Of a stretch of 64,000 nucleotides of DNA, positions 10,604 through 55,190 are shown in pieces; positions within the stretch are counted from its first letter, which is position 1, and every line of letters begins with the position of its first letter. A model generated the notes under the pieces. The model was not told the DNA's origin, made no database searches, and worked only from the letters and a program-made list of their open reading frames with translations. A program made the translations under genes and the position numbers. This DNA comes from Diplonema papillatum (lineage: Eukaryota): the NCBI GenBank assembly GCA_030068145.1, contig JAPJBO010001134.1, positions 1,408-65,407 on the forward strand, read 5' to 3'.

Positions 10604-10648
10604 GGGGGGGTTGCAAGAACGTGCTTGGAATGGGTATGTGCTCAACAC
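10604..10648 (+). repeat. Truncated copy 1 of a roughly 170 bp SINE-like dispersed element (core TTGCAAGAACGTGCTTGGAATGGGTATGTGCTCAACAC)
   Basis: The first 42 bp are identical to copy 2 at 12586. The copy is followed by a G7 run. Confidence 0.5.
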
Positions 10649-10679
10649 AGGGGGGGAGACTGAAATCTAAACGTTAATG

Positions 10680-10800
10680 TTTAGGCAGGGTCTCATGCAT
10701 GCAGGGGGGGTCGGGGAATCGCCCGCCAGTGATGCTAGGATACATAACCGTATCCAGGATAAGTATCCCTATTTCTCCGAAAATGCAAGGATACGTGTTG
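10680..10800. repeat. Left arm of an inverted-repeat pair, rich in GGATAC/GTATCC sub-repeats. The partner is at 12448..12548.
   Basis: The reverse complement of 12448-12548 (cagtgatgctggatacgtgaggatacg...) aligns with 10700-10800 (cagtgatgctaggatacataaccgtatcc...). Confidence 0.45.
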
Positions 10801-12447
10801 GATGCGTGGTGTACAGACAGTAAGGGTAGTGAGTAATACGTGCAGCAGGAGGTCATCAAAATACACGTAAGCCCAGGTGCAAATGAAAATGCAGCGCAAA
10901 TGTCCACCGCCAAGCCGGCGGCGAAGCCAGCCGGAAAGCCAGCCCCGAAGCCAGCAGTTAAGCGCAAGGCAGGAGATCCGATGTGGGGCTATGAGCGCAG
11001 GTGTCCCTGAAATCTCTCTTCCCGGGGGTTTAGAAAAAAAAGACGACCCCCCTTGGACGAGTTCAGCCCGATATAATTAGAATTAGATCATACCGGGAGC
11101 GCGTATGATATGTGCCCGCTGCTCCCGAGAAGACACGGAATGGAAAGATTGGTCACGCAATCGTCAAAATACCACCTCGGATCCCAAAAAAGGTTGGCCT
11201 CCATGGCCCCTCCTTTTGCACCTCGCTTCACCAGACAAATTACCATCACCCAATGAACGCACATCAGAACTGGGATGGCAGGTACTGAAGAACAGGGATG
11301 CTGCAAAATTGGCTGTGCGAACACCTGGAGAAAGGTTGCTTTGTTTCCTCAGCCCGTGTCGCGTGTGCTCGAAGTGAAGAAGAGACTGGCACAAGAGGAA
11401 TGTATCGCCTCCAGGAGTGTGGTGCCATGCACACCACACCTTCGGACGAAGCGCACACGACTACGACTGCAGCGGCAACAACTACGACTGTAAGGTGCAA
11501 GGTTCCAAAAAGCGACGGCAAAGACTACTTAGACAAGCGCCTTCAAGCTGCCCGAATAGGATGCTTGTTGTGAATGCTCCTGTCTATGCACCCCCAGAAG
11601 TCTCTGCTTCGGATGCTACAAACCGTGCCTTTCGGCGGAGCAGAACCCATCTGCCTTCGATACCCTCTGGAAGTTGCAAATTCGGGCAAAAGTGCCGACC
11701 ACGACTGCGGCGAGAACAATGTCACACGCATTCTTGAACGAGGTTCCGACACTGCCGTTGACATGGAATACAATGAGAAGGAGATCAATGCAGCGTTTTG
11801 CGATTAAAGAATTCGGATGCAGCTGCAGAGAATTCTTCAGGAGCCTTCTGATAGCCGCCAAACGTCATCTTCCTGAGTAGTAGGTGCCCTGAAAAAAGAG
11901 CCTAAGCCCACAGGGTCTAGGCCCTCGTGGTGCCCCTAGTGGTATAGTACGGTGACGCAGGGGAAAGCTGTGGCAGTCCATACACCCACCATCCCCGCCT
12001 CTAATTTGGCCAATCAAAGAGGATTTTAATCCGGAACATGCCTGAAAACTCTGTTCCCGGGTGCTACCAACAAACTGGCGACCCCCTCGATGGCAAAACA
12101 TGAAAATGCGTTTTTCGCAAACCCTAATTTTGGGATGTGGCCCGCCAGATATCGAGCTTCGGAGCCCGGCGAGGGTCGGAATGAAAAGATCGGATTCAAA
12201 ACAGTTCAAAAACGCCCTCGGGCCAAAGAAAATGACCCGGGGTTGACCTTCAGATGGTATTTTCCATATTTGAACGGTCGCCATGAGAATGACTGATATA
12301 GGTTGAGCAGTTATTCGGTTATCAGTGTCTTCTGCTTCGCGTATTCTAGAACATACGCGTTCTATATAGGTTGAGCAGTTAAGAAGTGGCAGTCATAGTT
12401 TGAACTTGGTATGCAGCAAGGCCTCGTAGTAAGGCTACCCGACAGTA

Positions 12448-12548
12448 TTGCGGGCACGTATCCATCGAGGACGGATGCGTATCCGGATATGTATCCGTAT
12501 CCTGATTCTCGAAATCCCACGTATCCTCACGTATCCAGCATCACTGCC
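12448..12548. repeat. Right arm of the inverted-repeat pair (partner 10680..10800)
   Basis: See the left arm. A G7 run follows this arm, and then the SINE-like copy 2. Confidence 0.45.
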
Positions 12549-12570
12549 CAAGGGGGGGAAAATGTTTCTT

Positions 12571-12745
12571 GAGTTTGAAGGGGGGATTGCAAGAACGTGC
12601 TTGGAATGGGTATGTGCTCAACACCGCACTGGTCCCGTCTGCGCCGTGTTTCGGTCCTTTAAGCCACGAACATATAAGGCGGACCATCATCAGCGCGGAA
12701 CCTGAGTGTCTGCAGACAGGACAGCGGTGTGAGCCTGGTTTGTCA
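12571..12745 (+). repeat. SINE-like dispersed element, copy 2 (the most complete, about 175 bp)
   Basis: It shares a conserved core with 55021-55190, running from GAGTTTGAAGGGGGG through TTGCAAGAACGTGCTTGG, GGTCCTTTAAGCCACG and CCATCATCAGCGCGGAACCTGAGTGTC to GCAGACAGGACAGCGGTGTGAGCCTGG. Confidence 0.5.
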
Positions 12746-12902
12746 GACGGCTGTTCGTAGCTCGTCACAGCCAGGACCACCCGTGCTACTAGAGCACAGG
12801 CGAATCCGTCGCCCCTACAACCGTGTCTGAGCAATCAGTTAAAAAACTCAGGGCACTCGCCCTGATGGTGACTGCGACTCGCTAGGCAGCACTGACTTGT
12901 GT

Positions 12903-13012
12903 GAGTTTGAAGGGGGGGAAAATCTTAGTTCAGGCGCGACGGGGGAGGGGGATCGCATGAACGTGCTTGGTATGGATAGTGCTCAACACCGCAATGGTCC
13001 TTTAATGCAGGG
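12903..13012 (+). repeat. SINE-like dispersed element, copy 3 (diverged and 3'-truncated)
   Basis: Motifs shared with the other copies: GAGTTTGAAGGGGGGG, GCATGAACGTGCTTGGTATGGATAGTGCTCAACACCGCAATGGTCC. Confidence 0.45.
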
Positions 13013-13059
13013 GGGGGCCACCCACGCCTCAGCTAGATGTTTCGGTAAAAACATCCGCG

Positions 13060-16000
13060 ATAGTAAAACGTCCTCTCCCCCTTTGCTGTATTTAAAAACA
13101 GGGGAAACATTGGAAAGGGCCCCGAGCGGACAGTCGAACGCAGTCTGAGAGATTAGATTGTCAAGCGGCACTCAACTGCTGCGAACCCAGCCCGCTAATG
13201 CGTTCGACGACCTGATGAGTCTCATGATTCTGCAATTCCTTCATTGACTATCGCGACTGGCCGCGGTCTTCATCGTTCCCAGAGGACTGTGAACTTGAAT
13301 TATTGGGTCAGTCCACCATCTTGAGGTACCACCAGGGGTCATCTTGGTGGTATCGCAGTTCACGGGACCACAGGAAGCAGCACAAGGCGACGTGGGCACA
13401 ACTGGCGCGATGCCTGATTTCTTGTACGGACGACCCAAAAAGCGGGACTTCTCTAAAAGTCACTTTTCCGCAGTTCATGACCGGTTGGTGTTGAATGAAG
13501 CTGTTCGATGTCCATCGAACATTTTCGGAAACAATTGAGTGTGGAGGTTCAGTGAGAACACGGGGAGGAAATCAGTCTAAATCGCTGGCATTATCCCCCA
13601 TCCCGGGATAGGGTCCATCCTATCAAGACTACCGGAAGAGCGTTTGAATGTGTAGGGGGTGGTCTTCTGGTAAAAGTTCACAAGACATCAGAGCATACTC
13701 GAGATTTCTAGAAACAAAAGCAAGCAATTCTAGAAAAGGATAGAGGCCTGGATGGTTGACCCTCCTTACGGCTTTCCGCAAGGCACACGGTGGCTCATTG
13801 TGAAGGGTATAAGAGCCCTGTGAACACTGGCAGACCTCATTCCATGGACGGTTCCGTACACAACTGAACATGTCCCAGGGGCGGCCCTACGGGGGGCTGT
13901 TCCACATAGGAAATCCCGAAAAGGGCTGGTAAATCTAGGGAGGGGGATAAAAACAACGAATTGGACTGATGGGGCTACCGTCGATCCCGAGGGACGATCA
14001 GTTTGGTCGTGTGACCTTGGTTTGTTTGGTGAGACTGCTGAAACAAAAATGGGAAGCAAGATGCGGGTTCAGCTTTTTGTGTTTTTCCTTTGCCGACATC
14101 TGGTGCCTTTGGGCCGCCCGGGTATGGACTCTTCCTCATCTCGTCTTTTAGTCTCTGTATGTAGAGCAGACGAATAGGGGGTTAAAAGCTTTTTTTGCGT
14201 TTCCGGCAATATGCGCTCAGTAAGTTGCCCCTTTTGCTTTCTCCATGTGGGCGTACACTTTTCTGGAACACAGATTAGGGATCTTTGAATAATAGCTTTT
14301 CAGGTTTCGGCTCAAACCTGTGGGCGGGACAACGCAGTCTATGTGGCTGAGCAGGCGGTGCCACATTCTCACTGCACGTTCATGTTGTGCTGCAGGTCCG
14401 GGTTTGCGGATAGATCCACTGTCCGTCTCGTTGGATTCTCCGTATTATTTGCCAGCAATGCTTCGGACCGAAGAACGAGAACTTGTTTTGCGTCGGCAGG
14501 CGAAGAGTGGGCTCCCCATTCATGAATTCCGCCAATGCCAGGCACAATACCCGTTTACGTGTGTGAAGGCGACCCAGTTCATGACTTTCTGGTCCAAGTT
14601 TTCAATGGGCTCTGTGCAAAACTTCGGTGATCAAGTTCGCTAGGCTACACAAATCCCTGTTCAGTCACTGACCGAGTTTACCCCCAGTTAAGGCCCTTCA
14701 ATGTATGTTTCGCTGCCGCGTCGTCTGTCTGGGGTATGCACATAGCGCGTTTTCCTGGTTGTTTTCGTCCGTCGGCACCGCCCTCCAATCGCTTTCCTTT
14801 TCCCGAGTTGCTTTTGTACAGCCACGTTGTATATTCAGGTTTCCCACGTTATTTTCAAGTTGCGCCGCAAACGGCGGCTGCCATTGTCCACGGACGCTAC
14901 TCACGCGGCGGTTCATCCTGGTAAATATCTGGCTTAGCACGATTGATGAGCTGTGCGTACTCATCCATGGAGACCACGCGCGTCCGCGTTGTGTCCAGGC
15001 CGTCCACCACCGACACGATGTCATCGTAGGTGTGCGACCACACGTGGACGGGGATCACGCTGTACCCAGCGCTGCTCTCCGGGTCCATGGCTTCTGAATT
15101 GAGGAGGCCGATCAGCTCCGAAACGCTTTGCTGCCCTTGCCACAGACAGTACCGGGCCCCGAGAAGCCAGCCTTGGTACTCAGGCGTCGACACGTACATG
15201 TTGTTCCCATCCAGGTCACAGTAGCCGCTGTACGGGTAGTACAGAACGTACTGCATACCCGCACCGAAGTATGGAGCCGCAGCTGCGGCGGCGGTGGCCA
15301 GATCGGTGGTGCTGCCCATGACGTTGACAACCGCCATGCCGTCTGCTTCGAGGTTGGAGGCCGATTCATTCATAAAAATGCTGGCCCACTTATCGGGCAT
15401 TTCGTCTATGTAAGTGTAGGTGTCGCCGGACACACTGCCGACGAACGTGTCATTCTGTGTCTTGACGCGCTGGAGGTAGTGGTAAATGGGCGCCGCTACA
15501 TCACGCGAGGACACCGACAGCGTCCACCCGACCGGAACGGCACCTCTCCGCGGGCATCCGTACCACTGCGGGCTGGTGGCGAACGTGTTGTCGAGCCATT
15601 GCAAGTTGTCGCCGTCGGTCATCACAAAAGCGATGACGTGCCGGTTGTCGTCGTCTGCTTGTTGCTGTGCGTGCTGCTGCGACTTCGCTGAGGTGCCCGG
15701 GACTGCACTCGGTTTGGGTTGGACATGCCGGCGTGAGAACTGAGGTACCGCGCCCATGCCGTAGTTCGTCATCGTCGCCAAGTTCAGCGCCCAGTCACTC
15801 GCAAGGAGGCCGTTGCCCCTTTCCGAAAGCGCTGAGACCGTGTAGAACTCGTCGGGTCCGTACCCCAAAGTCACCGCGCCTTTGCCTTCGGCGCTGGTGT
15901 ATTTCAGGATCTCGGCCACCATCGACGGGACCGGGCTGAAAGACGGCACGAAGTACACGGGGCACCGACAGAACGCCGCGTAGTCCGCAAGACTCGGCCA

Positions 16001-17200
16001 CGTCGCCGGTTTCTGCAGAATTGACACGCGCTGTCTAAAAGACGTCAGCGGCGTCGCGGCGTAGAAGGCCTCGTACGTCGCCTTCGTCGAGTCACCAGCA
16101 GACGTATACTGCAGTTGCGTCAACGTATCGCACGCAGTGTCCGCGCACACGACGCAAGGAGAAGATGTTTGAGCACGCAACGCACACTGCATCAAACCGA
16201 CGCCGACTGAATCTGTGCCCATGGTCACCTCCACGAAAGAATTGGCCAAGTTGGCGGCTATGGCCTCCTTCATGACGTTGGCGAAGCTCGACTCGGTCCG
16301 GAAGGTGACGTTCCAGTACAGCTCGAGCTCCCCCGCCCAGAGGCTCCACCCGGCCTGCCCGTCGGGAGTGTTCGCAGTGAACAGCCACGGCTTCGTCTGG
16401 GCCGCCACGCCCTGCAGCGAGTGAATGGCCAGCACCTCCTCCGGCGTCATGTCGGTGGTGTCCACCAGCAGCAGCTCGGCGGACGCGTTGGGCCCGGCGC
16501 TGGCGGCCGGGAAATAGTACTGCGTCCACTCGTCGGAAGCCGAGGCGAGGCTGGCAACGCAGCAAACCGCTGCGAGACTGGTTCGCATCGCAAACTGAAA
16601 GGGGCTCTGAAAATACCCGAGGCGGCTGCGTGTGCTGCTGGTGTCGCTTTCAAAGTGCTGCCCACACCCGGTTTTGTTCTCCTTTGGTGTGGTCCGTTAG
16701 TTGTGAACCGTTTTTCCACCGCATCTCTTCGTGTGCATCTCCGGGACAACCGCGTGTAGCGAGGTGGCAAAGTTGACCCGTGATTAGAGTTGGCATTCTA
16801 ATGCTACTACTAGGATACCCGGCGCTTTGGGTCCTATATGTTGCTTGTCGTCTGAGCCTTTGAGCCCAGCAGTGTTTGCGTGCCTACATCAATTGTGCAT
16901 TGCTGGGTCTGCTGTTGATGTCTCCTTTCAGTTGCGAGCCGTCGATTGCTCGAGGTAGTCTCAGGGGTAGGCGACCTCTCACAGTTTCACCGAGGGAGTT
17001 AATGCACCACGAATCGTCGATAAGAGAAATTCACACAGCCAGCAGGGTGTGCTTGGTTCAAAGAAAAAGTCAAGTTTGACCTCGCCAAGCTCGTTTCCCC
17101 GGGGTAAGGCAGTCATTGCGCTCGTGATATCAGTTACAAAGACGTGTTCGTAGTTCTCGCCAGCCAATACGAAGAGCAGAAGCTCCTAGTTTCCTGCCCG
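13060..17200. repeat. Segmental duplication unit B (partner of 6040..10300)
   Basis: See unit A. Unit B carries two extra insertions of about 200-270 bp relative to A. Confidence 0.6.
14897..16588 (-). CDS. Secreted N-glycosylated protein, copy B (563 aa). It has the same signal peptide as copy A and a slightly longer C-terminus.
   Basis: ORF 14897..16588 starts directly at MRTSLAAVCC. It is collinear with copy A, apart from a small AVPGTSAKS insertion and the C-terminal extension. Confidence 0.55.
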   Translation of the reverse strand: MRTSLAAVCCVASLASASDEWTQYYFPAASAGPNASAELLLVDTTDMTPEEVLAIHSLQGVAAQTKPWLFTANTPDGQAGWSLWAGELELYWNVTFRTESSFANVMKEAIAANLANSFVEVTMGTDSVGVGLMQCALRAQTSSPCVVCADTACDTLTQLQYTSAGDSTKATYEAFYAATPLTSFRQRVSILQKPATWPSLADYAAFCRCPVYFVPSFSPVPSMVAEILKYTSAEGKGAVTLGYGPDEFYTVSALSERGNGLLASDWALNLATMTNYGMGAVPQFSRRHVQPKPSAVPGTSAKSQQHAQQQADDDNRHVIAFVMTDGDNLQWLDNTFATSPQWYGCPRRGAVPVGWTLSVSSRDVAAPIYHYLQRVKTQNDTFVGSVSGDTYTYIDEMPDKWASIFMNESASNLEADGMAVVNVMGSTTDLATAAAAAAPYFGAGMQYVLYYPYSGYCDLDGNNMYVSTPEYQGWLLGARYCLWQGQQSVSELIGLLNSEAMDPESSAGYSVIPVHVWSHTYDDIVSVVDGLDTTRTRVVSMDEYAQLINRAKPDIYQDEPPRE

Positions 17201-17664
17201 ATTGGTGTGACGGAGTGAACGTGTTGGCTTGCGTGCGCAGATGCAGTGCAAACTATGAATTCGGCTGCTGCGCAAACGCCGCCGAACGGCTACTTATTCT
17301 ACTGACTGTTCTGCAGCAGCAACAACGCACCACTTTGCGGCTTTCTTGCACCAAGACTGATGACCCCGTCCGAAAGCAAAAGATGAATGGGCAGCAATTT
17401 TGGCCTGACCTCGAGTCAAATCGTGAAGGAAACGAAGGCAACCGTAGAACGAGAGAGAAGGCGAACGAGGGGCAGGGCTCTGGCAGGGCATGTGCCTACC
17501 ATTTCAAGGCTAGTGGAATGAGTGCGCAGCAAAAGATCGGGGCAATTGTGTTCTGCAAACAGCGTGCGGTGAAATAATATCGAGGAATTATTTTTGTTTT
17601 GAAACTGTTGCGGCGGACGGGTGCGGGTTAGAGTCGCACCCGCACGGCATCAACAAACAGTTCA

Positions 17665-18219
17665 TCAGTAGGTGCGGGTTGTTTTGCGGGTTTTGGTCAC
17701 GGTCACTGGTCGGCGACTGCGTGTGACAGGACGTGTTCTCCGGGTCTTCACAACAGTAGTTGCCGGTCTAGTGCGTCTTACGGGGGCTCGTCGCGTGCGT
17801 ACAGGAACAGCACGAGTCCGAGTGGTCGTCGTTTTCGTCGTTCGCCTCGTTGCAGGAGCCACGACGCGACGTCTCCTGCCCTGCCCAACACGTCCATCGT
17901 GGTTCAGGTCTTTGTGGGTTGCCCGCTCTGCGGTGCCGACAACCTTCCGCATGACACCGTTCGACTTTTTGTGCGGGGCGCGCCTTCCATACGGCACGGC
18001 CCCCACGCGGCCGTCGCCGTTTAAATCACGGCCTGTCCTTCTTTCGACGCTGCGTACGCCTGCATTGACTTTGCTACCTGTCGTCCTGCGAACGGGTGCC
18101 CTCGTCGTTGTTGCTGTAGTTGTTCTGTACGCTGGTTTCCTTGCGTACCCCACGCGGCCGTCGTGGTTGAGGTCCTTGCCGGTGCGCGTTTCGAGCTTGC
18201 GGACGAGTTTGTTCAACAT
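17665..18219 (-). CDS. DLNxDGRVG-repeat basic protein, paralog B
   Basis: ATG at 18219..18217 (MLNKLVRKLETRTGKDLNHDGRVG...). It is nearly identical to paralog C. Confidence 0.5.
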   Translation of the reverse strand: MLNKLVRKLETRTGKDLNHDGRVGYARKPAYRTTTATTTRAPVRRTTGSKVNAGVRSVERRTGRDLNGDGRVGAVPYGRRAPHKKSNGVMRKVVGTAERATHKDLNHDGRVGQGRRRRVVAPATRRTTKTTTTRTRAVPVRTRRAPVRRTRPATTVVKTRRTRPVTRSRRPVTVTKTRKTTRTY

Positions 18220-18988
18220 TTTCGCTGGATACTCCGCTTTTGGGTGGCTTTTCTTTTTGCGAGGTAGCAGGAGAGATTCCCTGAGTGAATGTATTCTGCT
18301 GTACACTCCCACGGCATATGCGAGAGCTACGAACTCATGCTCTGCGACCCAGGAGGTGGCTACCAGCTGATGAAGACGTTCACCCGGATGATTGCATCAC
18401 GTATGTCGTCCTCAAGGTGGGCAACAAACTACGAGCTATAATGGGTTGCATGTGCTAGTTTTTGCACGATCCCGAACGCATACTTGGTGCTCGCTCAAAA
18501 CATTCGCTTCGTTGAATGCACGTGATTGACGCAACGCTGGCGCTCTGAAGGCAAGGAAAATGGAAAAGGAAACAACTTGGGCTGACACCTCGAGTGGAAT
18601 CGTGATGTCAAGTTCCTCCCCGCGAAACGGTTTCCTTGTTTTGAGGCCTCGGAGATAGAAGAGAGAGACTTAGGACCAAGAAACTGTTTGCGGTAGACGG
18701 GTAACCTCAGAACGAGAGAGGAGGCGAAGGAGGGGTAGGGCTCTGGCAGGGCATGTGCCTACCATTTCAAGGCTAGTGGAATGGGTGCGCAGCGAAAGAT
18801 GGGGACAAATTGTGTTCTGCGGCTGTATTTTGCACGCAGCCATTTTTCCCAAGGACACTCTGGACGGTTTCGGCTTGAGAATGTTGTGGCGAAGGTGAGG
18901 AGGCGGGATTAGAAAAGTAGTTCGTCCCTTTGCAGTGTGCGGAAGGAGAACCGAAAGCTCGTCGCACCCGGCATCAACAAACAGTTCA

Positions 18989-19543
18989 TCAGTAGGTGCG
19001 GGTTGTTTTGCGTGTTTTGGTCACGGTCACTGGTCGGCGACTGCGTGTGACAGGACGTGTTCTCCGGGTCTTCACAACAGTAGTTGCCGGTCTCGTGCGT
19101 CTTTCGGGGGCTCGTCGCGTGCGTACAGGAACAGCGCGACTCCGAGTGGTCGTCGTTTTCGTCGTTCGCCTCGTTGCAGGAGCCACGACGCGACGTCTCC
19201 TGCCCTGCCCAACACGGCCATCGTGGTTCAGGTCTTTGTGGGTTGCCCGCTCTGCGGTGCCGACAACCTTCCGCATGACGCCGTTCGACTTTTTGTGCGG
19301 GGCGCGCCTTCCATACGACACGGCCCCCACGCGGCCGTCGCCGTTTAAATCACGGCCTGTCCTTCTTTCGACGCTGCGTACGCCTGCATTGACTTTGCTA
19401 CCTGTCGTCCTGCGAACGGGTGCCCTCGTCGTTGTTGCTGTAGTTGTTCTGTACGCTGGTTTCCTTGCGTACCCCACGCGGCCGTCGTGGTTGAGGTCCT
19501 TGCCGGTGCGCGTTTCGAGCTTGCGGACGAGTTTGTTCAACAT
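18989..19543 (-). CDS. DLNxDGRVG-repeat basic protein, paralog C (tandem copy about 1.3 kb from B)
   Basis: ATG at 19543..19541. It is more than 95% identical to B at the protein level. Confidence 0.5.
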   Translation of the reverse strand: MLNKLVRKLETRTGKDLNHDGRVGYARKPAYRTTTATTTRAPVRRTTGSKVNAGVRSVERRTGRDLNGDGRVGAVSYGRRAPHKKSNGVMRKVVGTAERATHKDLNHDGRVGQGRRRRVVAPATRRTTKTTTTRSRAVPVRTRRAPERRTRPATTVVKTRRTRPVTRSRRPVTVTKTRKTTRTY

Positions 19544-19974
19544 GTTTCGAACTCTTGCGTTTAGGTGGTTTGTTTCCTTTGGTAACACTCTACCTGATAA
19601 TAGAGTGAGGGTTTGACCAATTGTGACCCCCCTTCCAGCTAACCGTAGCTACGGTAGCATGCAAATGATTTTCCGGTCCCGCTCGTGTTGCATTGGTGAG
19701 AGTAGTCAGCAAGCCAATGTGCACCACAATGTGCCAGATTTTAGTTACGCGACACCGAAGGGGTCGACTCGTGACGGTTGCAAACGTTGCTGCGGGGCTG
19801 GTGGCAAGTTTACAGTCAGAGTCGGAATCAGATTCGAGATCGTTGTCAGAGTAATTCTCGCTGATGCAGGGTCTGATTTCGTGCCTAGCGACAGAGTACG
19901 AGCGCTCGGCGAAAGGCCGGCGGGGGCGAGACTGGAGGTAGCTGTTAAAGTTCGGGAAACAGTAAAGCTCGGGC

Positions 19975-20100
19975 GCAGCTAAGTTCGGGCGATGTTAAGT
20001 TTGGCTGATGCAAAGTTCGGGTTCTAGTTCGGCGTGTGGTAGCAAGTTTAGCCTGTGACAGCAAGTTCGGCCCCAGTACCCGGGGGGGAGACCCCCCCCG
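19975..20100. repeat. Degenerate (A)AGTTCGG(G) mini-repeats followed by a CCCGGGGGGG-AGA-CCCCCCCCG palindrome
   Basis: Read directly from the sequence at 19978-20075 (gctaagttcgggcgatgttaagtttgg...agcaagttcggcccc) and 20079-20100. Confidence 0.4.
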
Positions 20101-24607: not shown

Positions 24608-24608
<1 letters not shown>

Positions 24609-24650: not shown

Positions 24651-24652
<2 letters not shown>

Positions 24653-24694
24653 GGGGAAAACCATAACGCACTCAACACATACTCAAACGGTAAA

Positions 24695-25933: not shown

Positions 25934-25975
25934 GCTGGGCGTGCCGGACAAGAACTGACACCAAGCAAGGAAAAC

Positions 25976-31768: not shown

Positions 31769-31828
31769 CTTAATCTGAGCGTGGTCGTACTTTCGTGAAG
31801 GGAGGCACCACGTTAAAACGGGTCCGTA

Positions 31829-38475: not shown

Positions 38476-39064
38476 CTGTGTGCACGGTGTGTGTTTCTGG
38501 GTTATAGCCATGGCAACGTCTGAAGCAAAGCACAGCCATAGACGCGGGTTTTAGTTTTCGCCGCTTGTTTCGGGTCCTGTATAAGAGTAGCGGGCAGTAT
38601 CCTTCGGGGACGGATAGCCATTCGTGATACTGCTTAGGTCCGCCGGCAGGCGCTGCTGCTGCCGACGGCACAAACAAAGTAGGAAAGAAGAGCCGGCAGT
38701 CTGGATCCGTAACTTCGGGAAATCGAATTGGAACTGAGTACACATGCTGTATGTCAGTGCGGGTATAGGTCCGGGCTCAGATTGAAGGTGCTGTGCGTGG
38801 AGCGCTCGGGTGCTACCCTCGGCTCGATTTATTCCGGCATCCTTGCCGGAGCGGTAGTGGGTGGAGTGTGACTTCTGCCCAGCAACGCTGAAAGTTCAAA
38901 AGGTCAACCGTGCAGGTAGCCAAATGCCTCGTCGCGTAAAGACGCGCATGGGTGGGCCAATGAGACTCGTTCTGTGTCTACCTGAAACGAACGACCACGT
39001 GCTGGGTGGGGCGCACAGGATTTGCACAGCCATAGCTTCGAGAAAGAAAGCAGGTGCGGCCTAC

Positions 39065-47279: not shown

Positions 47280-47720
47280 TGTTATTTGTGGTTTAGAAGA
47301 AGGCCCTTGTTTCTTCTCTTTTGGAGCGAGAGCTCGGTAAAGGGGGGGGGGGGGGGGGCAGCGCTCTTGTTAAGGATCAGCCACTTTGGCCGGATGGCCG
47401 GATAAACCAGACCCCCCCCCCCCCTCCCCCCCTCTACAGTGCAGTTGCCTTGGAGGCTGGGTGGTCAAATTCTCTAAGGTGAAATGGTCAAAATTCCCTG
47501 CCAAAAGTGGGCCCACAAAAATTTTCCAAAGTGTGGTATTTTGGGTATTTGGGGCAAAAAAAAAACTTTTTTTTTTCTGACCGCCCACCGTGGTGACCAC
47601 CTTAGAGTGTGACAGGTAGCGTCTCCCCCCTCCACAGTGAAAATAGCCTGAGGGGGGGGGGGGCAGGGGTGGAAACTGAATCTGGCCGGTCTGGGTTTTG
47701 GGTTTTATGTTTCCTGGGGG
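47280..47720. repeat. Homopolymer-rich low-complexity island: G17 at 47342-47358, C12 plus C6 at 47417-47436, A10/T12 at 47551-47576, G12 at 47642-47653
   Basis: Direct read. A GGGTTTTGGGTTTTATGTTTCC motif is shared with 51118-51145. Confidence 0.7.
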
Positions 47721-48273: not shown

Positions 48274-49107
48274 CTAAGACGACGATGACGACGACGACGA
48301 TGAACATGATGATGATGCTGATGATGATGATGATGATGACGACGACACGTTGCTTCGCTTTATGGCCTTGGGCGGCGGACAAGAGGGCGGGCATGACGAG
48401 GCACGTTTTCGTTTGCCTTGTGGGACTGCGGGAACAGCTGCTGAGGAACGATTGTCAGTTGTTGACGGGGCGGGTTTAGTGGCCGGTGTCGTGCGTTTGC
48501 CTTGTGGGACTGCGGGAACAGCTGCTGAGGAACGCTTGTCAGTTGTTGACGGGGCGGGTTGAGTGGCCGATGTCGTGCGGAGGCGTTTGTGTGTTCGCAG
48601 TGTATCGGGCTGGTGGGTTTGCTTTCTTTTCGCTGAAGCCGTAACAACAGGGAGCTCAATAGGCAAAGCAGATGCAGGCTGCGATGGAGCTGCTACGGCA
48701 GACGGCGCTGCAGAGGCTGATGTGGACCCTCTTGGCCGATAAGTGGCAGGTCTTGATTGAGCAGTGTTGGCAGGCGACGACGTAGCTGCGTTGGCGGCTG
48801 GGGCAACTCGTGAACGAGCACCCGCGGAAGGGGTGCTTCGAGCTTTCGGCTGCTGCCCAGGCGATGAGGTAGCTGCGTTGGCGTCTGGGGTAACTCGCGA
48901 TCGAGAAACCGCGGATGGAGTGATGCTTGGGCGGGCCACCGGCTGCTGCCCAGTCGGACCTGCCACGCGAGCCGTCAGCAGAACCGCAACGATGCTGGCA
49001 ATTGCGATGTTACCCCGGAGGCCCTTTACCCCGAGCCAATGCGCGAACCCGAAGGTGCCGAAGTAGAATTCTCCTTGGTGGGGACAACTCGAAACAATGA
49101 AATTCAA
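48274..49107 (-). CDS. Possible repetitive Ser/Thr/Pro/Ala-rich protein with a poly-Ser C-terminus and internal repeats of about 85-88 bp x2. Coding status is uncertain.
   Basis: ORF 48274..49107. It contains RSSAAVPAVPQGKR x2 and PSAGARSRVAPAANAATSS x2. It abuts the 102-bp array but sits in a different frame. Confidence 0.25.
   Translation of the reverse strand: MNFIVSSCPHQGEFYFGTFGFAHWLGVKGLRGNIAIASIVAVLLTARVAGPTGQQPVARPSITPSAVSRSRVTPDANAATSSPGQQPKARSTPSAGARSRVAPAANAATSSPANTAQSRPATYRPRGSTSASAAPSAVAAPSQPASALPIELPVVTASAKRKQTHQPDTLRTHKRLRTTSATQPAPSTTDKRSSAAVPAVPQGKRTTPATKPAPSTTDNRSSAAVPAVPQGKRKRASSCPPSCPPPKAIKRSNVSSSSSSSSSASSSCSSSSSSSSS
48277..48345. repeat. (GAC/GAT)n trinucleotide microsatellite (encodes poly-Ser on the minus strand)
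   Basis: The read gacgacgatgacgacgacgacgatgaacatgatgatgatgctgatgatgatgatgatgatgacgacgac. Confidence 0.9.
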
Positions 49108-49890
49108 GTGTCTCCCTCAAAGTTTGAAGGTTTCCAGGGTGGGGACATCTCCGGACGTCAAAATAGAGGTGTCTCCTTGGTGGGGACAACTCGAAACGAT
49201 GAAATTCAAGTGTCTCCCTCAAAGTTTGAAGGTTTCCAGGGTGGGGACATCTCCGGATGTCAAAATGGAGGTGTCTCCTTGGTGGGGACAACTCGAAACA
49301 ATGAAATTCAAGTGTCTCCCTCAAAGTTTGAAGGTTTCCAGGGTGGGGACATCTCCGGATGTCAAAATAGAGGTGTCTCCTTGGTGGGGACAACTCGAAA
49401 CAATGAAATTCAAGTGTCTCCCTCAAAGTTTGAAGGTTTCCAGGGTGGGGACATCTCCGGACGTCAAAATAGAGGTGTCTCCTTGGTGGGGACAACTCGA
49501 AACAATGAAATTCAAGTGTCTCCCTCAAAGTTTGAAGGTTTCCAGGGTGGGGACATCTCCGGACGTCAAAATCGAGGTGTCTCCTTGGTGGGGACAACTC
49601 GAAACAATGAAATTCAAGTGTCTCCCTCAAAGTTTGAAGGTTTCCAGGGTGGGGACATCTCCGGACGTCAAAATAGAGGTGTCTCCTTGGTGGGGACAAC
49701 TCGAAACAATGAAATTCAAGTGTCTCCCTCAAAGTTTGAAGGTTTCCAGGGTGGGGACATCTCCGGATGTCAAAATAGAGGTGTCTCCTTGGTGGGGACA
49801 ACTCGAAACAATGAAATTCAAGTGTCCCCTTCAAAGTTTGAAGGTTTCCAGGGTGGGGACATCTCCGGATGTCAAAATGGAGGTGTCGTA
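49039..49890. repeat. Tandem array with a 102-bp unit, about 8.3 copies, 95-99% identical. The array is open in at least three reading frames.
   Basis: The period was measured as 49085 to 49187. The unit is CAACTCGAAACAATGAAATTCAAGTGTCTCCCTCAAAGTTTGAAGGTTTCCAGGGTGGGGACATCTCCGGACGTCAAAATAGAGGTGTCTCCTTGGTGGGGA. Confidence 0.9.
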
Positions 49891-50084
49891 GCTGAGGGTG
49901 TAAAGGTTGGTGAAGCCTCGAGATTCTGTTGGAATTTTGCGAAGCTTGTGTGTTTCCTGCACACGAGCTGTAACGCTGTACCGTACCGTTCGGCCGGGGG
50001 GCGGTGCCCCCCGGATCCCCCCCTCTCTTTTGGAAGGATTGGTGCCAAAAAAAAAAACCCCCGGGCTACGCCCGTTTAGATTCG

Positions 50085-50125
50085 AAGGTATATCACCCAT
50101 TCCACGAAAAAGTGTCACAGATTTC
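50085..50125. repeat. Left arm of a roughly 40-bp inverted repeat (partner 51012..51055). The pair brackets a structure of about 970 bp that contains a pol III tRNA-like unit.
   Basis: ggtatatcacccattccacgaaaaagtgtcacagatttc is matched by gaaaatctgtgacactttttcgtggaatgggtgatattc at the partner site. Confidence 0.6.
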
Positions 50126-50499
50126 GGCTTTTTTCGGATTTCTGCCGAAGATTTCCATCTGCAGGTCCGAAAATGGTCGGTTTCGAGATTTTGAGGACAC
50201 GTTTGAATCCGTTGAGGACAGGGCTTTCCGAATATTTGGTCGGATAAAATTTTGACCGACCCCCCCCCCGGAAATGGAGGTCGGCACCCGAAAAAATGGG
50301 GTCCTGGAGATCGGTTTTTTTTCTCTCTGCATCCAGGAGGGGGTCAGATTTTGATCGCTGGGCTAGCTGGCAGCTTGCCCATAATCGCGCATCCCAGAAC
50401 TACTCGAAAACCAAAAGATTTCCCAAAAAGACCTCGAAAATAATTTCCAGACGGCTGCTTTTCACACCGAAAAATCGCAAAAAAAAAAAATCGGACCGG

Positions 50500-50578
50500 G
50501 GGAATCGAACCATGGCCTACAGGGGCCCAGGAGGGTGCGGTAACCGTTAGGCTATGTTGCCAAACCTCGGGCCAAAAT
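50500..50578 (-). ncRNA. Pol III-type tRNA-like unit 2, with an A-box-like TAGCCTAACGGTTA, a perfect B-box GGTTCGATTCC and a T12 terminator. It is not a canonical cloverleaf.
   Basis: The minus strand reads TTTGGCAACATAGCCTAACGGTTACCGCACCCTCCTGGGCCCCTGTAGGCCATGGTTCGATTCCCCCGGTCCGATTTTTTTTTTTT. The T-stem and acceptor do not pair. Confidence 0.35.
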
Positions 50579-51011
50579 TCGCTTTTAGCGCCTGCTCAGT
50601 TGGAATTCTTATCGGAAAGTGCGAGATCGTCATTTACTCGTTTCCAGTGTCCCAGGACGGTATTTCTGCTCTCTCAGAGCTTATTTCGCCCGGTTTGCGA
50701 AGAACTCAAAATGAGTCCAAAAATTCTCACTCGGTAGTGAACAAAAAAAATTCCGCCGTTTTTTTAGCCCATGGTCCAGAGGTTACCACACCCACACAGG
50801 GGTTTGTGGGTCGGTGGTTCGATTCCCGCCGGAAATCGTTTTTTTGGGTTTTTAAAACAGCCCCAAAACCGACCTTTTGTCCATCTGCACGCCAGATTTT
50901 GGTCGCCACGCGAGCTGATTGCTTGCCCATAATCGCCAGGGATAGCTCTTTCCATCCCAAAAAAAAATTCCCAAAAATTCCAAAATTTTGACCCAAAACG
51001 GGCTGCTTTTC

Positions 51012-51055
51012 AGACGGAAAATCTGTGACACTTTTTCGTGGAATGGGTGATATTC
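51012..51055. repeat. Right arm of the inverted repeat (partner 50085..50125)
   Basis: See the left arm. Confidence 0.6.
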
Positions 51056-51289
51056 AAGATCGGGAACCGGGACCAGCCAGCCAGTAGTGGCTGCCACCAA
51101 ATACTTGGTATCTGGTGGCCTTGGGTTTTGGGTTTTATGTTTCCATCTATGGGGGGGGGGAGGGGGGGGGGTCAGCCGGCTGATGGGATGGGATGGATGG
51201 TTCTTAACAGATGCCCTGGGGGGGGAAAAACTTAGTTTAATGTTTAGCAGAGTACTGCCCTCATCAAGTCTTCGCTCGAAGAAAGTTTA

Positions 51290-51475
51290 AAGGGGGGGGT
51301 GGGGGGGGGGGGTCGAATAATAGCAGGTATTTGACACGCGGCTGGTTGTCTAAAACCACTACCACTATTTGTTCCTGCTACTGGTCGGCTACCTGCAACT
51401 TTTTTTAGTATTCGACAAATCGAATAATAACACAGGTGGTATTATTCGACCCCCCCCCCTCTTTAAAACTGCAGG
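51290..51475. repeat. Foldback structure. GGGGGGGGGGGGTCGAATAATA at 51300-51330 and TATTATTCGACCCCCCCCCC at 51445-51470 are inverted. There is an internal perfect hairpin, TATTCGACAAATCGAATA, and nearby G12 and G10 runs at 51149-51171.
   Basis: Direct read. Confidence 0.55.
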
Positions 51476-52135: not shown

Positions 52136-53080
52136 TCAGTCGGCGGCATCGCCGTCGCCGCCGGTGCCGTCGTATTCCAGGAAGATGCCTCCTTTGCACG
52201 AGTACTCGGGCTTGTACGGGTTGAGAAACAGGATCGACGCGGTCATGTGCGACGACACGAAGATGGTGAGGAACAGCGAGATCACGCCGGTGGTGTCCCA
52301 CTTGGCCTTGACCTCCAGATTTTCGTCGACTTTGCACCTGCCGGCGACCGCGATCTGAGAATCGGCGCCGGAGGACTTCGTGAACAACCCGCCAAACTGC
52401 GCCTTCGGGGTGATATCGAGCGCAAACCCAGCCTGAAAGCAAGAGGACCACCCAGCATCGTCGCACGCTCTGCCCACCCGGAAAGCCAAGACGAGGTCCC
52501 GGACTGCCTGGCTAAGGGAGAGCCCGACCCGCTTTATCCTGCCCTCGCCCCCGTTGTAAAGACCCTCGGCCCCTGCGGTCATCCCCTTCCATTCGTATGA
52601 AGCCGACTGGACCAGACTCACGCCTTCTTCGGCTGCTGTGCTTTTGAACGCTCTTAACGAGTGGATCCATCCGTCTCCTGCTCGGGACGCTTCTATCCCA
52701 AAGCAGTCGTCGCCCTCTCCGTGGTTCAGGTCCGCTGATGTTACAATTGTGGTGTTGTCAATGCCGAACGGAGTATCGAACCTTGCGTTTATCTCAGTAG
52801 ACCCGCTGGACTTGAGTGTGGTGTCCACCGCAAGGTTGGTTGCTCCCACAGCCGACTCGTAACTCGAAGTCAAGCTCCCCTCCGATGCTGAGCCCGGCAA
52901 ATGCTTGTGCCATGCCGACAGCAACACCCCGCCTTGGCTCCTTCCTTTCACATTCACTTCCACTGCCCCTGGACACGCCTCGAACCCGTCCATCATCAGC
53001 TCTTCCACAGGGCCGAAGACCTCTGCCACATGGCCAGCGACATCGTCCATGCTCTCCCTGGGCTTCTCCGACCCCCTCAC
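52136..53080 (-). CDS. Tom40-like mitochondrial outer-membrane beta-barrel protein (eukaryotic porin superfamily)
   Basis: N-terminal FGPVEELMMDGFEACPGAVEVNVKG matches Tom40 [30 protein letters not shown]. C-terminal KVDENLEVKAKWD...FLNPYKPEYSCKGG matches SVDSNWIVGATLEKK...FLNHRKNKFQCGFG. The alternating beta-strand pattern is present. Confidence 0.5.
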   Translation of the reverse strand: MRGSEKPRESMDDVAGHVAEVFGPVEELMMDGFEACPGAVEVNVKGRSQGGVLLSAWHKHLPGSASEGSLTSSYESAVGATNLAVDTTLKSSGSTEINARFDTPFGIDNTTIVTSADLNHGEGDDCFGIEASRAGDGWIHSLRAFKSTAAEEGVSLVQSASYEWKGMTAGAEGLYNGGEGRIKRVGLSLSQAVRDLVLAFRVGRACDDAGWSSCFQAGFALDITPKAQFGGLFTKSSGADSQIAVAGRCKVDENLEVKAKWDTTGVISLFLTIFVSSHMTASILFLNPYKPEYSCKGGIFLEYDGTGGDGDAAD

Positions 53081-53219
53081 CGGCTTCCCCCCGCCTCCCG
53101 CCTAGCTGCAGACTGGTTTGATTGTTCTTGTTCTTGCACACAGGCGGAACTAAACTGCTGTGTTATGTTGCACGCGAGGGGGTACCGCGCCTTTGAACCA
53201 GGGAAATACGGCACGCTCC

Positions 53220-54790
53220 GACCACGGATGATCCTAACGGCACAGATAGACTCCGTCAGGGCTCAAGGTGGTCGTCTGTTTGCGAGTAGGGGGCACCGTG
53301 TCAAACCAGGACAACGTGCTTCATGATCCTAACGGCACAGATAGACTCCATCAGGGCTCAAGGTGGTCGTCTGTTTACAAGTAGGGGTGTTCCCGTGCCA
53401 AACCTGGGTAATATGTTCATCTCCAACCACGGATGATCCTAACGGCACAGATAGACTCCGTCAGGGCTCAAGGTGGTCGCCTGTTTGGGCACCGTGTCAA
53501 GCCAGGACAACGTGCTTCATCTCCGACCACGGATGATCCTAACGGCACAGATAGACTCCGTCAGGGCTCAAGGTGGTCGTCTGTTTGCGAGTAGGGGGCA
53601 CCGTGTCAAACCAGGACAACGTGCTTCATGATCCTAACGGCACAGATAGACTCCATCAGGGCTCAAGGTGGTCGTCTGTTTACAAGTAGGGGTGTTCCCG
53701 TGCCAAACCTGGGTAATATGTTCATCTCCAACCACGGATGATCCTAACGGCACAGATAGACTCCGTCAGGGCTCAAGGTGGTCGTCTGTTTGGGCACCAG
53801 GACAACGTGCTTCATCTCCGACCACGGATGATCCTAACGGCACAGATAGGCTCCGTCAGGGCTCAAGGTGGTCGTCTGTTTACAAGTAAGGGTTCCCGTG
53901 CCAAACGAGCTCTAATACGTTCATCTCCGACCACGGATGATCCTAACGGCACAGATAAACTCCGTCAGGGCTCAAGGTGGTCGTCTGTTTACAAGTAAGG
54001 GTTCCCGTGCCAAACGAGCTCTAATATGTTCGTCTCCGACCACGGATGATCCTAACGGCACAGATAGACTCCGTCAGGGCTCAAGGTGGTCGTCTGTTTA
54101 CAAGTAAGGGTTCCCGTGCCAAACGAGCTCTAATACGTTCATCTCCGACCACGGATGATCCTAACGGCACAGATAAACTCCGTCAGGGCTCAAGGTGGTC
54201 GTCTGTTTACGAGTAGGGGTGTTCCCGTGCCAAACCTGGGTAATATGTTCATCTCCAACCACGGATGATCCTAACGACACAGATAGACTCCGTCAGGGCT
54301 CAAGGTGGTCGTCTGTTTACAAGTAAGGGTTCCCGTGCCAAACGAGCTCTAATACGTTCATCTCCGACCACGGATGATCCTAACGGCACAGATAAACTCC
54401 GTCAGGGCTCAAGGTGGTCGTCTGTTTACGAGTAGGGGTGTTCCCGTGCCAAACCTGGGTAATATGTTCATCTCCAACCACGGATGATCCTAACGACACA
54501 GATAGACTCCGTCAGGGCTCAAGGTGGTCGTCTGTTTACAAGTAAGGGTTCCCGTGCCAAACGAGCTCTAATACGTTCATCTCCGACCACGGATGATCCT
54601 AACGGCACAGATAAACTCCGTCAGGGCTCAAGGTGGTCGTCTGTTTACAAGTAGGGGTGTTCCCGTGCCAAACCTGGGTAATATGTTCATCTCCAACCAC
54701 GGATGATCCTAACGACACAGATAGACTCCGTCAGGGCTCAAGGTGGTCGTCTGTTTACAAGTAATTCCCGTGCCAAACCAGGTCTAATAT
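53220..54790. repeat. Satellite array, about 15 units of roughly 96-112 bp, with two alternating spacer variants. Shared core: GATGATCCTAACGGCACAGATAGACTCCGTCAGGGCTCAAGGTGGTCGTCTGTTT.
   Basis: The unit starts at 53225, 53333, 53437, 53533, 53631, 53737 and so on. The ORFs at 53668..53998 simply translate the repeat. Confidence 0.9.
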
Positions 54791-55020
54791 GTTCATCTCC
54801 GATCACAGATGATGAAGTAGCGGGTACCGCCCTAAAATCGGCGTATATTCTGAGCTTCTGAGACTGGAGGTAACTGTAGCTCTCTGCGGCCTGTGCTACG
54901 TCTTTCTTCTGGCTAGAAACCAGCTAGGACTGGAATGAATGATTCAAACGTCAAATGGCAACATAGGATGGCACGGACATAACAGGAGAATGAACAAAAG
55001 AAAGAAGTAAGGGTACAAAG

Positions 55021-55190
55021 GGGGGGAAGGGGGGATGCAAGAGCGCGCTTGGAAAGGTGTGTGCCTCAACGCCGTGTCCTTTTTAGCGCCGTGTTGTTTT
55101 GGTCCTTTAAGCCACGGACCCATTAGCGGGGCCATCATCAGCGCGGAACCTGAGTGTCCGCAGGCAGGACAGCGATGTGAGCCTGGTCAC
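55021..55190 (+). repeat. SINE-like dispersed element, copy 4 (complete, about 170 bp)
   Basis: It shares the core with copy 2: GGTCCTTTAAGCCACGGAC, CCATCATCAGCGCGGAACCTGAGTGTCCGCAGGCAGGACAGCGATGTGAGCCTGG. Confidence 0.5.

What the first reader, a model, noticed from the sequence alone, without database searches (positions are those of the whole stretch)
10604..55190. A roughly 170 bp dispersed SINE-like element in four copies, with a highly conserved 3' half
The copies are at 10604-10648, 12571-12745, 12903-13012 and 55021-55190. They share GAGTTTGAAGGGGGG...TTGCAAGARCGYGCTTGGAA...GGTCCTTTAAGCCACG...CCATCATCAGCGCGGAACCTGAGTGTCYGCAGRCAGGACAGCGRTGTGAGCCTGG. The 3' 60 nt are almost invariant between copies 2 and 4 despite divergence elsewhere. 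This fits a functional RNA such as a SINE or snRNA-like structure, or a conserved RT-recognition tail. I could not match the element to SL RNA, U snRNAs, 5S or 7SL consensus by eye.
Basis: seen in the sequence. Interest (0 to 1): 0.55.

Follow-up and report, generated by a model that had tools for sequence, protein, structure and literature searches.

The report
Short unclassified repeat in Diplonema genome
The reported ~160-bp repeat is real and non-coding, but it sits at only two independent places in a Diplonema papillatum contig, a genome already known to hold about 10,000 dispersed repeat families. It meets almost none of the criteria for a SINE or a known small RNA, so it is best treated as one more uncharacterised interspersed repeat.

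Summary
Two full copies (12580-12739 and 55020-55187) align at 81.5% (E 7e-35). Two partial copies (10604-10648 and 12941-13009) share the same left end. The last 56 nt are 53/56 identical against 61/97 elsewhere (permutation p about 1e-4).

The window is Diplonema papillatum nuclear DNA. Published work reports 46-52% dispersed repeats, about 10,000 families and no curated transposon library.

Copies 1-3 are not independent. Copy 1 is a 98% duplicate of the head of copy 2. Copy 3 shares upstream flank with copy 2. All three lie in the 2.5-kb junction of a tandem gene duplication, so there are two dispersal events.

The element matches no Rfam family, tRNA, A/B boxes, protein, inverted termini or target-site duplication. 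It has no similarity to either end of the resident OTU-APE-RT-RNaseH LINE, and its fold energies are unremarkable.

Every copy starts at the same base after a G-run. Read on the minus strand, that is a shared 3' end with a variable C-run and 5'-truncated copies, which is the retroposon pattern. My best reading is an old, discrete, non-autonomous repeat, probably retroposed, with its partner unknown.

Genome copy number could not be tested. Interest is low.

The parts
12580..12739 (.). Copy 2, full length: G6, then A, then TTGCAAGAACG...GTGAGCCTGGT. It is preceded by G7 plus a 21-nt 'F2' piece at 12552-12579.
   Evidence: aligns to copy 4 at 81.5%, E 7e-35. Similarity stops at 12739, with only a weak ~60% continuation to about 12775.
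55020..55187 (.). Copy 4, full length: G7-AA-G6, then A, then TGCAAGAGCG...GTGAGCCTGGT. It lies in the intergenic region between a porin-like gene (52136-53080, -) and a HEAT-repeat gene (57952-58719, -), 200 nt from a 109-bp tandem array.
10604..10648 (.). Copy 1: G7 plus the first 38 nt of the element, followed directly by another G7. It is 44/45 identical to 12580-12624, run included, so it is a recent local duplicate of the head of copy 2.
12941..13017 (.). Copy 3: G5AG5, then A, then TCGCATGAACG...GGTCCTTTAATGCA, then G8. It covers about the first 75 element positions with a 22-nt deletion between two GGTCC repeats. Its core is 88% identical to copy 2. Homology to copy 2 also extends upstream into the preceding G7-AAAAT module (12910-12940).
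   Evidence: 12550-12635 vs 12910-13000.
12684..12739 (.). Highly conserved 56-nt domain (CCATCATCAGCGCGGAACCTGAG...GTGAGCCTGGT) in copy 2. It can form an imperfect hairpin.
   Evidence: 53/56 identical to copy 4; a hairpin is predicted and all 3 substitutions fall at unpaired positions, but z-scores range from -1.7 to +0.95.
55132..55187 (.). The same conserved 56-nt domain in copy 4.
10579..13080 (.). Repeat-rich 2.5-kb spacer between tandem duplicate units A (6058-10578) and B (13081-17454). It holds copies 1-3.

Best explanation
The element is a discrete, non-coding interspersed repeat of about 160 bp in the Diplonema papillatum nuclear genome. It is most likely an old remnant of a non-autonomous mobile element, one of the roughly 10,000 uncharacterised dispersed-repeat families reported for this species.

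Shown:
- There are two independent insertions in this window, at 12.6 kb and 55.0 kb, about 19% diverged from each other.
- Two extra partial copies arose locally, next to copy 2, in a G-run-rich rearranged junction between duplicated genes.

Inferred:
- It spread by retroposition, and its true orientation is probably the minus strand.
- Read that way, every copy shares the same 3' end (...CCAAGCRCGYTCTTGCA followed by a variable, interrupted C-run). The two short copies are then 5'-truncated, and the strongly conserved 56 nt is the 5' head.
- All copies would then lie in the sense orientation of the surrounding minus-strand gene clusters. They could be transcribed as part of long polycistronic or 3'-UTR RNA without a promoter of their own.
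- The partner reverse transcriptase is not the LINE in this window.
For: - Real, discrete repeat with sharp common boundaries.
- Organism identified as D. papillatum: 100% identity to its annotated thioredoxin reductase.
- The genome paper reports 46-52% dispersed repeats, about 10,000 RepeatScout families, more than 2,500 transposon-type gene models and no curated TE library.
- Non-coding. The best DNA alignment needs frame-shifting indels. There is no codon-position bias, and frames are open on both strands. There is no Pfam hit. Only two spurious repetitive-protein hits appear among 1.84 billion representatives.
- No Rfam family and no tRNA.
- All four copies begin at the same base after a G-run of variable length (G7; G6; G5AG5; G7AAG6). 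The other end varies: 38 nt, about 57 nt, and full length twice. On the minus strand that is the 3'-anchored, 5'-truncated pattern.
- A retroposed 5.8S rRNA piece sits 150 nt away, present in one duplicate unit and absent from the other. Reverse-transcript capture therefore happens at this locus.
- Neighbouring genes are on the minus strand.
Against: - No target-site duplications.
- No A/B boxes above chance.
- No similarity to the resident LINE's ends.
- A C-run tail is not a tail type I know from described LINE/SINE pairs.
- The truncation argument rests on c1 and c3, which are probably DNA-level local duplicates rather than independent insertions. c1 keeps the same run length as c2. c3 shares upstream flank with c2.
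- The LINE in the window itself starts with G6 on the + strand. G-runs could therefore instead mark 5' junctions.
- Copy number in the genome is unknown.
- The uneven conservation (p about 1e-4) is not explained by neutral decay.
Confidence: 0.55

Rival explanations
1. It is a fragment of a larger repeat: a solo LTR or terminal repeat, the untranslated end of another LINE family, or one end of a DNA transposon. It would not be a free-standing short element.
For: - The unit starts TG (TGCAAG) and runs to ...GGT(TTG)TCA, and is directly preceded by a purine run (GAAGGGGGGA), which resembles a polypurine-tract/LTR junction.
- c1 and c2 are direct repeats flanking 1.93 kb.
- D. papillatum has many LTR-type and DNA-transposon gene models.
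- G-run/C-run-terminated MITE-like structures occur in this window and are discussed for other diplonemids.
Against: - Both full copies lose similarity at the same points on both sides.
- No 4-6 bp target duplications.
- The sequence after the unit is not conserved, so there is no primer-binding site.
- c1 is only 45 nt, so c1 and c2 are not an LTR pair.
- The unit has no inverted termini.
Confidence: 0.2
2. It is a functional structured RNA or cis-acting RNA module read on the plus strand. Either it is a small-RNA gene family, or it is a SINE whose conserved 3' hairpin is a reverse-transcriptase recognition tail.
For: - Significant excess conservation of the last 56 nt.
- RNAalifold places that domain in one imperfect hairpin, and all three substitutions fall at unpaired positions.
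- The two conserved blocks of the 5' half (CGYGCTTGGAA and TTTAAGCCACG) can pair using G-U pairs that exist only on the plus strand.
- The c2 hairpin is more stable on + than on - (-27.5 vs -15.4 kcal/mol).
Against: - Fold energies are not better than dinucleotide shuffles (z from -1.7 to +1.0).
- There is no true compensatory change inside the homologous region.
- No Rfam family matches at E<=10, vault, Y, snRNA, snoRNA, 7SL and SL included.
- No A/B boxes and no T-run terminator after the unit.
- No similarity to the LINE tail.
- Partial copies would be 3'-truncated, which retroposition does not produce.
- With two sequences, the chance that 3 of 3 substitutions fall unpaired is about 0.05, and the structure was chosen to fit them.
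Confidence: 0.13
3. It is a dispersed piece of a cellular sequence: an rRNA expansion segment or rDNA spacer, or a mitochondrial DNA segment (NUMT). It would have been captured like the neighbouring 5.8S piece.
For: [quoted passage not shown]
- A 5.8S piece lies 150 nt from copy 3.
Against: - With permissive thresholds, no LSU, SSU or 5.8S covariance-model match covers the element, whereas the 5.8S piece scores 53 bits.
- The two copies are 19% diverged yet share exact boundaries.
- The 5.8S piece has no G-run at either junction.
Confidence: 0.07
4. It is a short protein-coding exon or small cysteine-containing peptide gene. A 63-codon frame is open in both full copies.
For: ORFs 12569-12760 and 55035-55226 are in the same frame and 60% identical as peptides.
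Against: - The opposite strand is equally open.
- Differences fall 13/9/17 over codon positions, which is not significant.
- In the conserved domain 2 of 3 changes are non-synonymous.
- The better DNA alignment has frame-shifting indels.
- There is no Pfam match.
- No true homologue exists among 1.84 billion representatives, a library drawn from the collection that holds annotated D. papillatum proteins.
Confidence: 0.02

Closest known systems
SINEs (short interspersed elements mobilised by LINEs)
   Same: It is a short (~160 bp), discrete, non-coding unit at unlinked loci. It has conserved terminal regions and a variable centre. Truncated copies share one end, and that end carries a length-variable homopolymer run.
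   Different: There is no tRNA-, 7SL-, 5S- or snRNA-derived head and no internal pol III boxes. No poly(A), A-rich or microsatellite tail is present. The run is C (or G). It does not resemble the tail of the LINE in the window. No target-site duplications are detectable. Copy number is unknown.
Degenerate trypanosomatid retroposons (RIME/NARTc, Leishmania SIDER1/2) in related Euglenozoa (from my own knowledge)
   Same: These are non-autonomous, decayed retroposon remnants lying between genes of polycistronic units. They are often in sense orientation in 3' UTRs and need no pol III promoter. The element here would be in sense orientation if read on the minus strand.
   Different: The ~79-nt 5' signature shared by those families could not be tested with the tools. 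Those families have A-rich tails, and SIDERs are about 550 bp. No regulatory role is shown here.
Unnamed RepeatScout dispersed-repeat families of D. papillatum (Valach et al. 2023, PMC10161547), for example R=0, a 226-bp motif with about 6,000 copies
   Same: Same genome, same size class, no recognisable origin, and a location in repetitive intergenic stretches between gene clusters.
   Different: The published consensus sequences are not in the text or supplements held here. Identity with any listed family could therefore not be checked.
MITE-like elements with G-rich/C-rich inverted ends, proposed as the source of non-canonical introns in other diplonemids (PMC12621601)
   Same: A G-run sits at one terminus. 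Such G...C inverted structures occur elsewhere in this window (47342-47432, 51301-51459).
   Different: This element has a G-run at one end only. It has no inverted terminus and is not in an intron here.

Membership tests
SINE | Short (about 80-600 bp), discrete, non-coding unit | tested here: met
   About 160 bp with common boundaries in both full copies. No coding signal.
SINE | Head derived from a pol III transcript (tRNA, 7SL, 5S, snRNA) with internal A and B boxes | tested here: not met
   No Rfam match at E<=10 on either strand. ARAGORN finds none. The best A/B-box matches have 1-3 mismatches, the same as in shuffles.
SINE | 3' part homologous to the 3' end of a partner LINE | tested here: not met
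   Local alignment of both strands against the LINE's 3' 410 nt and 5' 160 nt falls within the shuffle range. Other D. papillatum LINE families could not be tested.
SINE | Poly(A), A-rich or simple-repeat 3' tail | tested here: inconclusive
   There is none after ...GCCTGGT on the + strand. An A9 run lies 37 nt downstream in copy 4 only. On the - strand every copy ends in a variable C-run: C7; C6; C5TC5; C6TTC7.
SINE | Flanking target-site duplications | tested here: inconclusive
   No direct repeat longer than 5-7 nt with a mismatch was found for any boundary choice. At 19% divergence, old duplications may have decayed.
SINE | Many copies dispersed through the genome | not testable with these tools
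   The window shows two independent loci. D. papillatum DNA was not retrievable. Metagenome and viral scans with the core gave only chance 22-nt matches.
Known small RNA gene families (snRNA, SL RNA, 5S, 7SL, vault, Y, snoRNA) | Covariance-model match to the family | tested here: not met
   The only hit in the window is a 5.8S fragment at 13166-13284 (-), outside the element.
MITE / DNA transposon | Terminal inverted repeats plus target-site duplication | tested here: not met
   No inverted repeat involves the element ends. No TSD.
Solo LTR / TRIM | TG...CA termini, 4-6 bp TSD, adjacent PBS/PPT in complete elements | tested here: inconclusive
   TG start, a ...TCA end and an upstream purine run can be read. 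There is no TSD and no conserved sequence after the unit.
Dispersed rRNA pieces / NUMTs of D. papillatum | Sequence identity to rDNA or mitochondrial DNA | tested here: inconclusive
   No match to rRNA covariance models. Spacers, expansion segments and mtDNA are not available to the tools.
Trypanosomatid-type degenerate retroposons (RIME/SIDER) | Shared ~79-nt 5' signature and A-rich tail | not tested
   No reference sequence was available. The resemblance is in genomic setting only.

The most novel reading that the evidence does not exclude
The element could be a diplonemid-specific non-autonomous retroposon family whose 56-nt hairpin domain is under selection. The domain might be the recognition module for a reverse transcriptase that primes on C/G homopolymer runs. 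Alternatively it might be a sense-strand regulatory module in the long 3' UTRs or intergenic RNA of polycistronic units, as SIDER2 is in Leishmania. The G-run-bounded mosaic around copies 1-3 would then record template switching, or templated repair at G-tracts. That would make it the first characterised SINE-like family of diplonemids, with an unusual tail type.
Probability: 0.12. Interest if true: 0.5.

Novelty: new member of a known kind. Interest (0 to 1): 0.2.

Why it matters
As it stands, it matters little. D. papillatum is already known to be half repeats, with thousands of unannotated families, and this is one of them seen at two loci.

It would matter modestly to transposon and euglenozoan genome specialists if genome-wide analysis confirmed three things: a discrete family, a selectively conserved 56-nt domain, and a homopolymer-C tail. 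No transposable-element library exists for diplonemids, and no diplonemid SINE turned up in the literature searched here. The way repeats are transcribed and mobilised in genomes with polycistronic transcription is also poorly understood.

The recurrent G-runs at module boundaries in this window may be the more general and more interesting lead.

Tried and rejected
- **Rfam, all 4,227 families.** Gathering and E<=10 thresholds on both loci, and E<=1 on the whole window, gave nothing on the element.
- **ARAGORN.** No tRNA found.
- **Thermodynamic folding.** Whole element and sub-domains, both strands: z-scores from -2.0 to +1.0.
- **RNAalifold.** A hairpin is predicted, but the only 'compensatory' pairs involve non-homologous flank.
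- **More copies elsewhere.**
  - The metagenome scan with a 20-mer and the viral scan with an 18-mer returned only 22-nt chance matches in phage-like coding sequence.
  - The element is absent from two 21-kb loci of related diplonemid assemblies.
- **Retrieving more D. papillatum DNA by exact-protein look-up.** This failed for five proteins.
- **Published repeat consensus.** I searched the genome paper's supplements for the element's sequence and found nothing.
- **Coding test.** Codon-position counts, Pfam and a profile search of 1.84 billion representatives found only two repetitive proteins matching a short motif by chance.
- **LINE partner test.** Negative against the resident LINE's ends.
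- **A/B boxes.** At chance level.
- **TSD search.** Eight boundary definitions around the element copies, plus the flanks of the neighbouring hAT-like element and the 5.8S insertion, gave nothing.
- **Empty-site comparison using the tandem duplicate units.** The duplication ends 25 nt before copy 1, so no empty site is available.
- **Vault RNA.** Considered because major-vault-protein genes lie at 37-40 kb. Rejected: no Rfam Vault hit, no A/B boxes, no terminator, and the element is not adjacent to those genes.


Full report
**Observation**

- BLASTN with short words against the whole window gives c2 12577-12739 vs c4 55026-55187 at 81.5% identity over 168 columns, E 7e-35.
- c1 10604-10648 vs 12580-12624 is 44/45 identical (E 6e-13).
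- The c3 region 12910-13000 vs 12550-12635 is 78% identical (E 3e-14).
- A profile HMM built from the four copies finds nothing further on either strand.
- With 100-nt flanks added, similarity between c2 and c4 begins at the G-run and ends at ...GAGCCTGGT. After that there are about 35 nt of weak (~60%) resemblance, then nothing. The unit is therefore discrete and about 160 bp long.

**Uneven conservation**

c2 and c4 have equal length between the boundaries.
- Without gaps they match at 114/153 positions.
- Block identities run 82%, 53%, 35%, 59%, 94%, 65%, 100%, 88% and 94% along the element.
- The last 56 nt are 53/56 identical against 61/97 for the rest. Fisher p is 6e-6, and the best-window permutation gives p about 1e-4.

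**Whose genome**

- A thioredoxin-reductase ORF at 1435-2970 (-) is 100% identical to the NCBI protein 'Thioredoxin reductase SEP1 [Diplonema papillatum]', from a 65,407-bp contig.
- Per the genome paper (PMC10161547) and its supplement:
  - Dispersed repeats make up 46-52% of the assembly.
  - There are nearly 10,000 RepeatScout families.
  - The most abundant family is a 226-bp motif present about 6,000 times.
  - There are more than 2,500 transposon-type gene models.
  - A 7.7-kb LINE with an APE-RT-RNaseH ORF of 1,866 aa resembles the window's LINE at 24651-31875.
  - About 2,400 28S and 1,100 18S pieces of 30-200 bp are scattered through the genome, and there are at least 343 kb of NUMTs.
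  - No euglenozoan transposon compilation exists.
- No paper describing diplonemid SINEs was found.

**Local context**

- A self-comparison shows a tandem segmental duplication: unit A 6058-10578 and unit B 13081-17454, each carrying a GxGYxYP-family gene on the minus strand.
- Copies 1-3 all lie in the 2.5-kb junction between the units (10579-13080).
- c1 equals the head of c2 including the run length (G7T vs G6AT), which indicates a DNA-level duplicate.
- c3 is closest to c2 (about 88% in the core), and its homology extends upstream of the element into the preceding 'G7-AAAAT...' module. It too is a local duplicate, with a 22-nt slippage deletion between two GGTCC repeats.
- The window therefore documents two dispersal events, c2 and c4.
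- c4 lies between a porin-like gene (52136-53080, -) and a HEAT-repeat gene (57952-58719, -), next to a 109-bp tandem array.

**What it is not**

- *Known RNA family.* Rfam at gathering thresholds, and at E<=10 on both loci, gives no hit on the element. The only real hit in the window is a 5.8S fragment at 13166-13284 (-). ARAGORN finds no tRNA.
- *Pol III promoter.* A/B-box matches are at chance level.
- *Protein-coding.*
  - Both strands carry open frames.
  - Differences are spread 13/9/17 over codon positions.
  - The better alignment needs frame-shifting indels.
  - There is no Pfam hit.
  - A profile search of 1.84 billion representatives returns only two repetitive proteins that match a short motif by chance.
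- *DNA transposon.* The element has no inverted termini.
- *Target-site duplication.* None found for eight boundary definitions around the element copies.
- *Partner of the resident LINE.* Neither strand resembles the 3' 410 nt or the 5' 160 nt of the OTU-APE-RT-RNaseH LINE beyond shuffled controls.

**Structure**

- Whole-element and domain MFEs are within the shuffle distributions, with z from -2.0 to +1.0.
- RNAalifold puts the conserved 56 nt into one imperfect hairpin, with the three substitutions at unpaired positions.
- It also pairs the two conserved 5' blocks using G-U pairs that are available only on the + strand.
- With two sequences and a structure chosen to fit them, this is suggestive only. 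There is no compensatory change inside the homologous region.

**Orientation and mechanism (inference)**

- All four copies start at the same base, (A/T)TGCAAG or TCGCATG, directly after a G-run whose length and interruptions differ: G7; G6; G5AG5; G7AAG6. The far end is variable.
- On the + strand this would mean 5'-complete, 3'-truncated copies with no tail, which target-primed reverse transcription does not produce.
- On the - strand it is the standard picture: a common 3' end with a length-variable homopolymer tail, and 5'-truncated copies.
- The conserved 56 nt is then the head.
- All copies then lie in the sense orientation of the flanking minus-strand genes, so read-through polycistronic transcription could supply the RNA without an internal promoter.

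Caveats:
- c1 and c3 are probably local duplicates.
- C-run tails are not a tail type I know.
- The window's LINE begins with G6 on the + strand right after a (CA)22 tract. G-runs might instead be 5'-junction additions.
- G-runs also bound other modules here. In related diplonemids, inverted G/C-rich ends are attributed to MITE-like elements.

**Limits**

- Genome copy number, consensus, subfamilies, partner LINE and transcription could not be examined.
- The one metagenome scan found only chance matches.

**Verdict**

One structural criterion is met. Two are not met, two are inconclusive, and copy number is untestable.

The element is best described as an unclassified, discrete, non-coding interspersed repeat of D. 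papillatum. It is probably an old non-autonomous retroposon read on the minus strand. One domain is conserved more than neutral decay predicts.

In a genome already reported to contain about 10,000 such families, this is an ordinary finding.

Noticed in passing
13143-13292 (Rfam hit 13166-13284, minus strand): A 5'-truncated 5.8S rRNA piece (53 bits, model positions 25-154, with compensatory changes in a helix) plus about 23 nt beyond its 3' end. It is an insertion present in duplicate unit B and absent from unit A (6118-6153). It has no G-run, tail or clear TSD. It fits the published scattering of rRNA pieces in this genome.
   Followed up: partly
10727-10745 and 12529-12546 (reverse complement): A terminal inverted repeat pair, CAGTGATGCT(A)GGATAC, followed by several GGATAC/GTATCC subterminal repeats, encloses about 1.8 kb. 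This looks like a hAT-like non-autonomous DNA transposon. No 8-bp target duplication was seen.
   Followed up: partly
51218-51299; also 10650-10710, 12552-12585, 12912-12951: A second small repeat ('F2'): G-run, AAAA(A/T)CTTAG...TTAATGTTTAG...AGTTTRAA, G-run. It occurs whole or in pieces, always bounded by G-runs. It sits immediately left of three different elements: the repeat studied here, the hAT-like element, and a G-run/TCGAATAATA inverted-repeat element.
   Followed up: partly
47342-47432; 51301-51459; 6398-6436; 20082-20099: There are inverted G-run...C-run pairs, for example G17...C13TC7 and G12-TCGAATAATA...TATTATTCGA-C10. The first produces spurious microRNA-precursor hits in Rfam. 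They resemble the G/C-rich inverted ends proposed to be MITE-derived in other diplonemids (PMC12621601).
   Followed up: partly
whole window: Runs of G>=6 number 41 on the + strand and 21 on the - strand. Many are 10-21 nt long and cluster in intergenic repeat regions. Most genes here are on the minus strand, so these are C-runs in the sense strand. They could be pyrimidine tracts, element tails or breakage-repair junctions.
   Followed up: no
24651-31875 (+): A full-length LINE. It starts with G6 directly after a (CA)22 tract. ORF1 is 24695-25930 and ORF2 is 25976-31768 (OTU protease, AP endonuclease, RT, RNase H). Its tail is (CA)n(CAAA)n(CACT)n, so it may target or prime on CA repeats. Its closest annotated D. 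papillatum relative is only 66% identical.
   Followed up: partly
50090-51053: Perfect 35-nt inverted termini (ATATCACCCATTCCACGAAAAAGTGTCACAGATTT) enclose about 0.9 kb. Inside are two inverted copies of a tRNA T-arm-like motif (GGTTCGATTCC, near 50505 and 50815). Neither ARAGORN nor Rfam calls a tRNA.
   Followed up: partly
6058-10578 and 13081-17454; also 5110-5655, 17705-18223, 19029-19575: A tandem segmental duplication (about 83% identity) of a GxGYxYP-family putative glycoside hydrolase gene, plus three copies of an unannotated ORF family. This is consistent with the reported expansion of carbohydrate-degrading genes in this species.
   Followed up: no
48968-49981 and 53190-54813: Tandem arrays of 102-bp and 109-bp units. 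The latter lies just upstream of a porin-like gene (52136-53080, -). It recalls the published 'repeat-bounded gene structures'.
   Followed up: no
47693-47714 and 51123-51144: The 22-mer GGGTTTTGGGTTTTATGTTTCC occurs twice. One copy is followed directly and the other within 6 nt by a long G-run.
   Followed up: no
37198-39907 (-): Major-vault-protein coding sequence is split into two ORFs (437 and 309 aa). Its best database relatives are only 71% identical, and no D. papillatum protein appeared among the hits. It may be an unannotated gene or a pseudogene.
   Followed up: no
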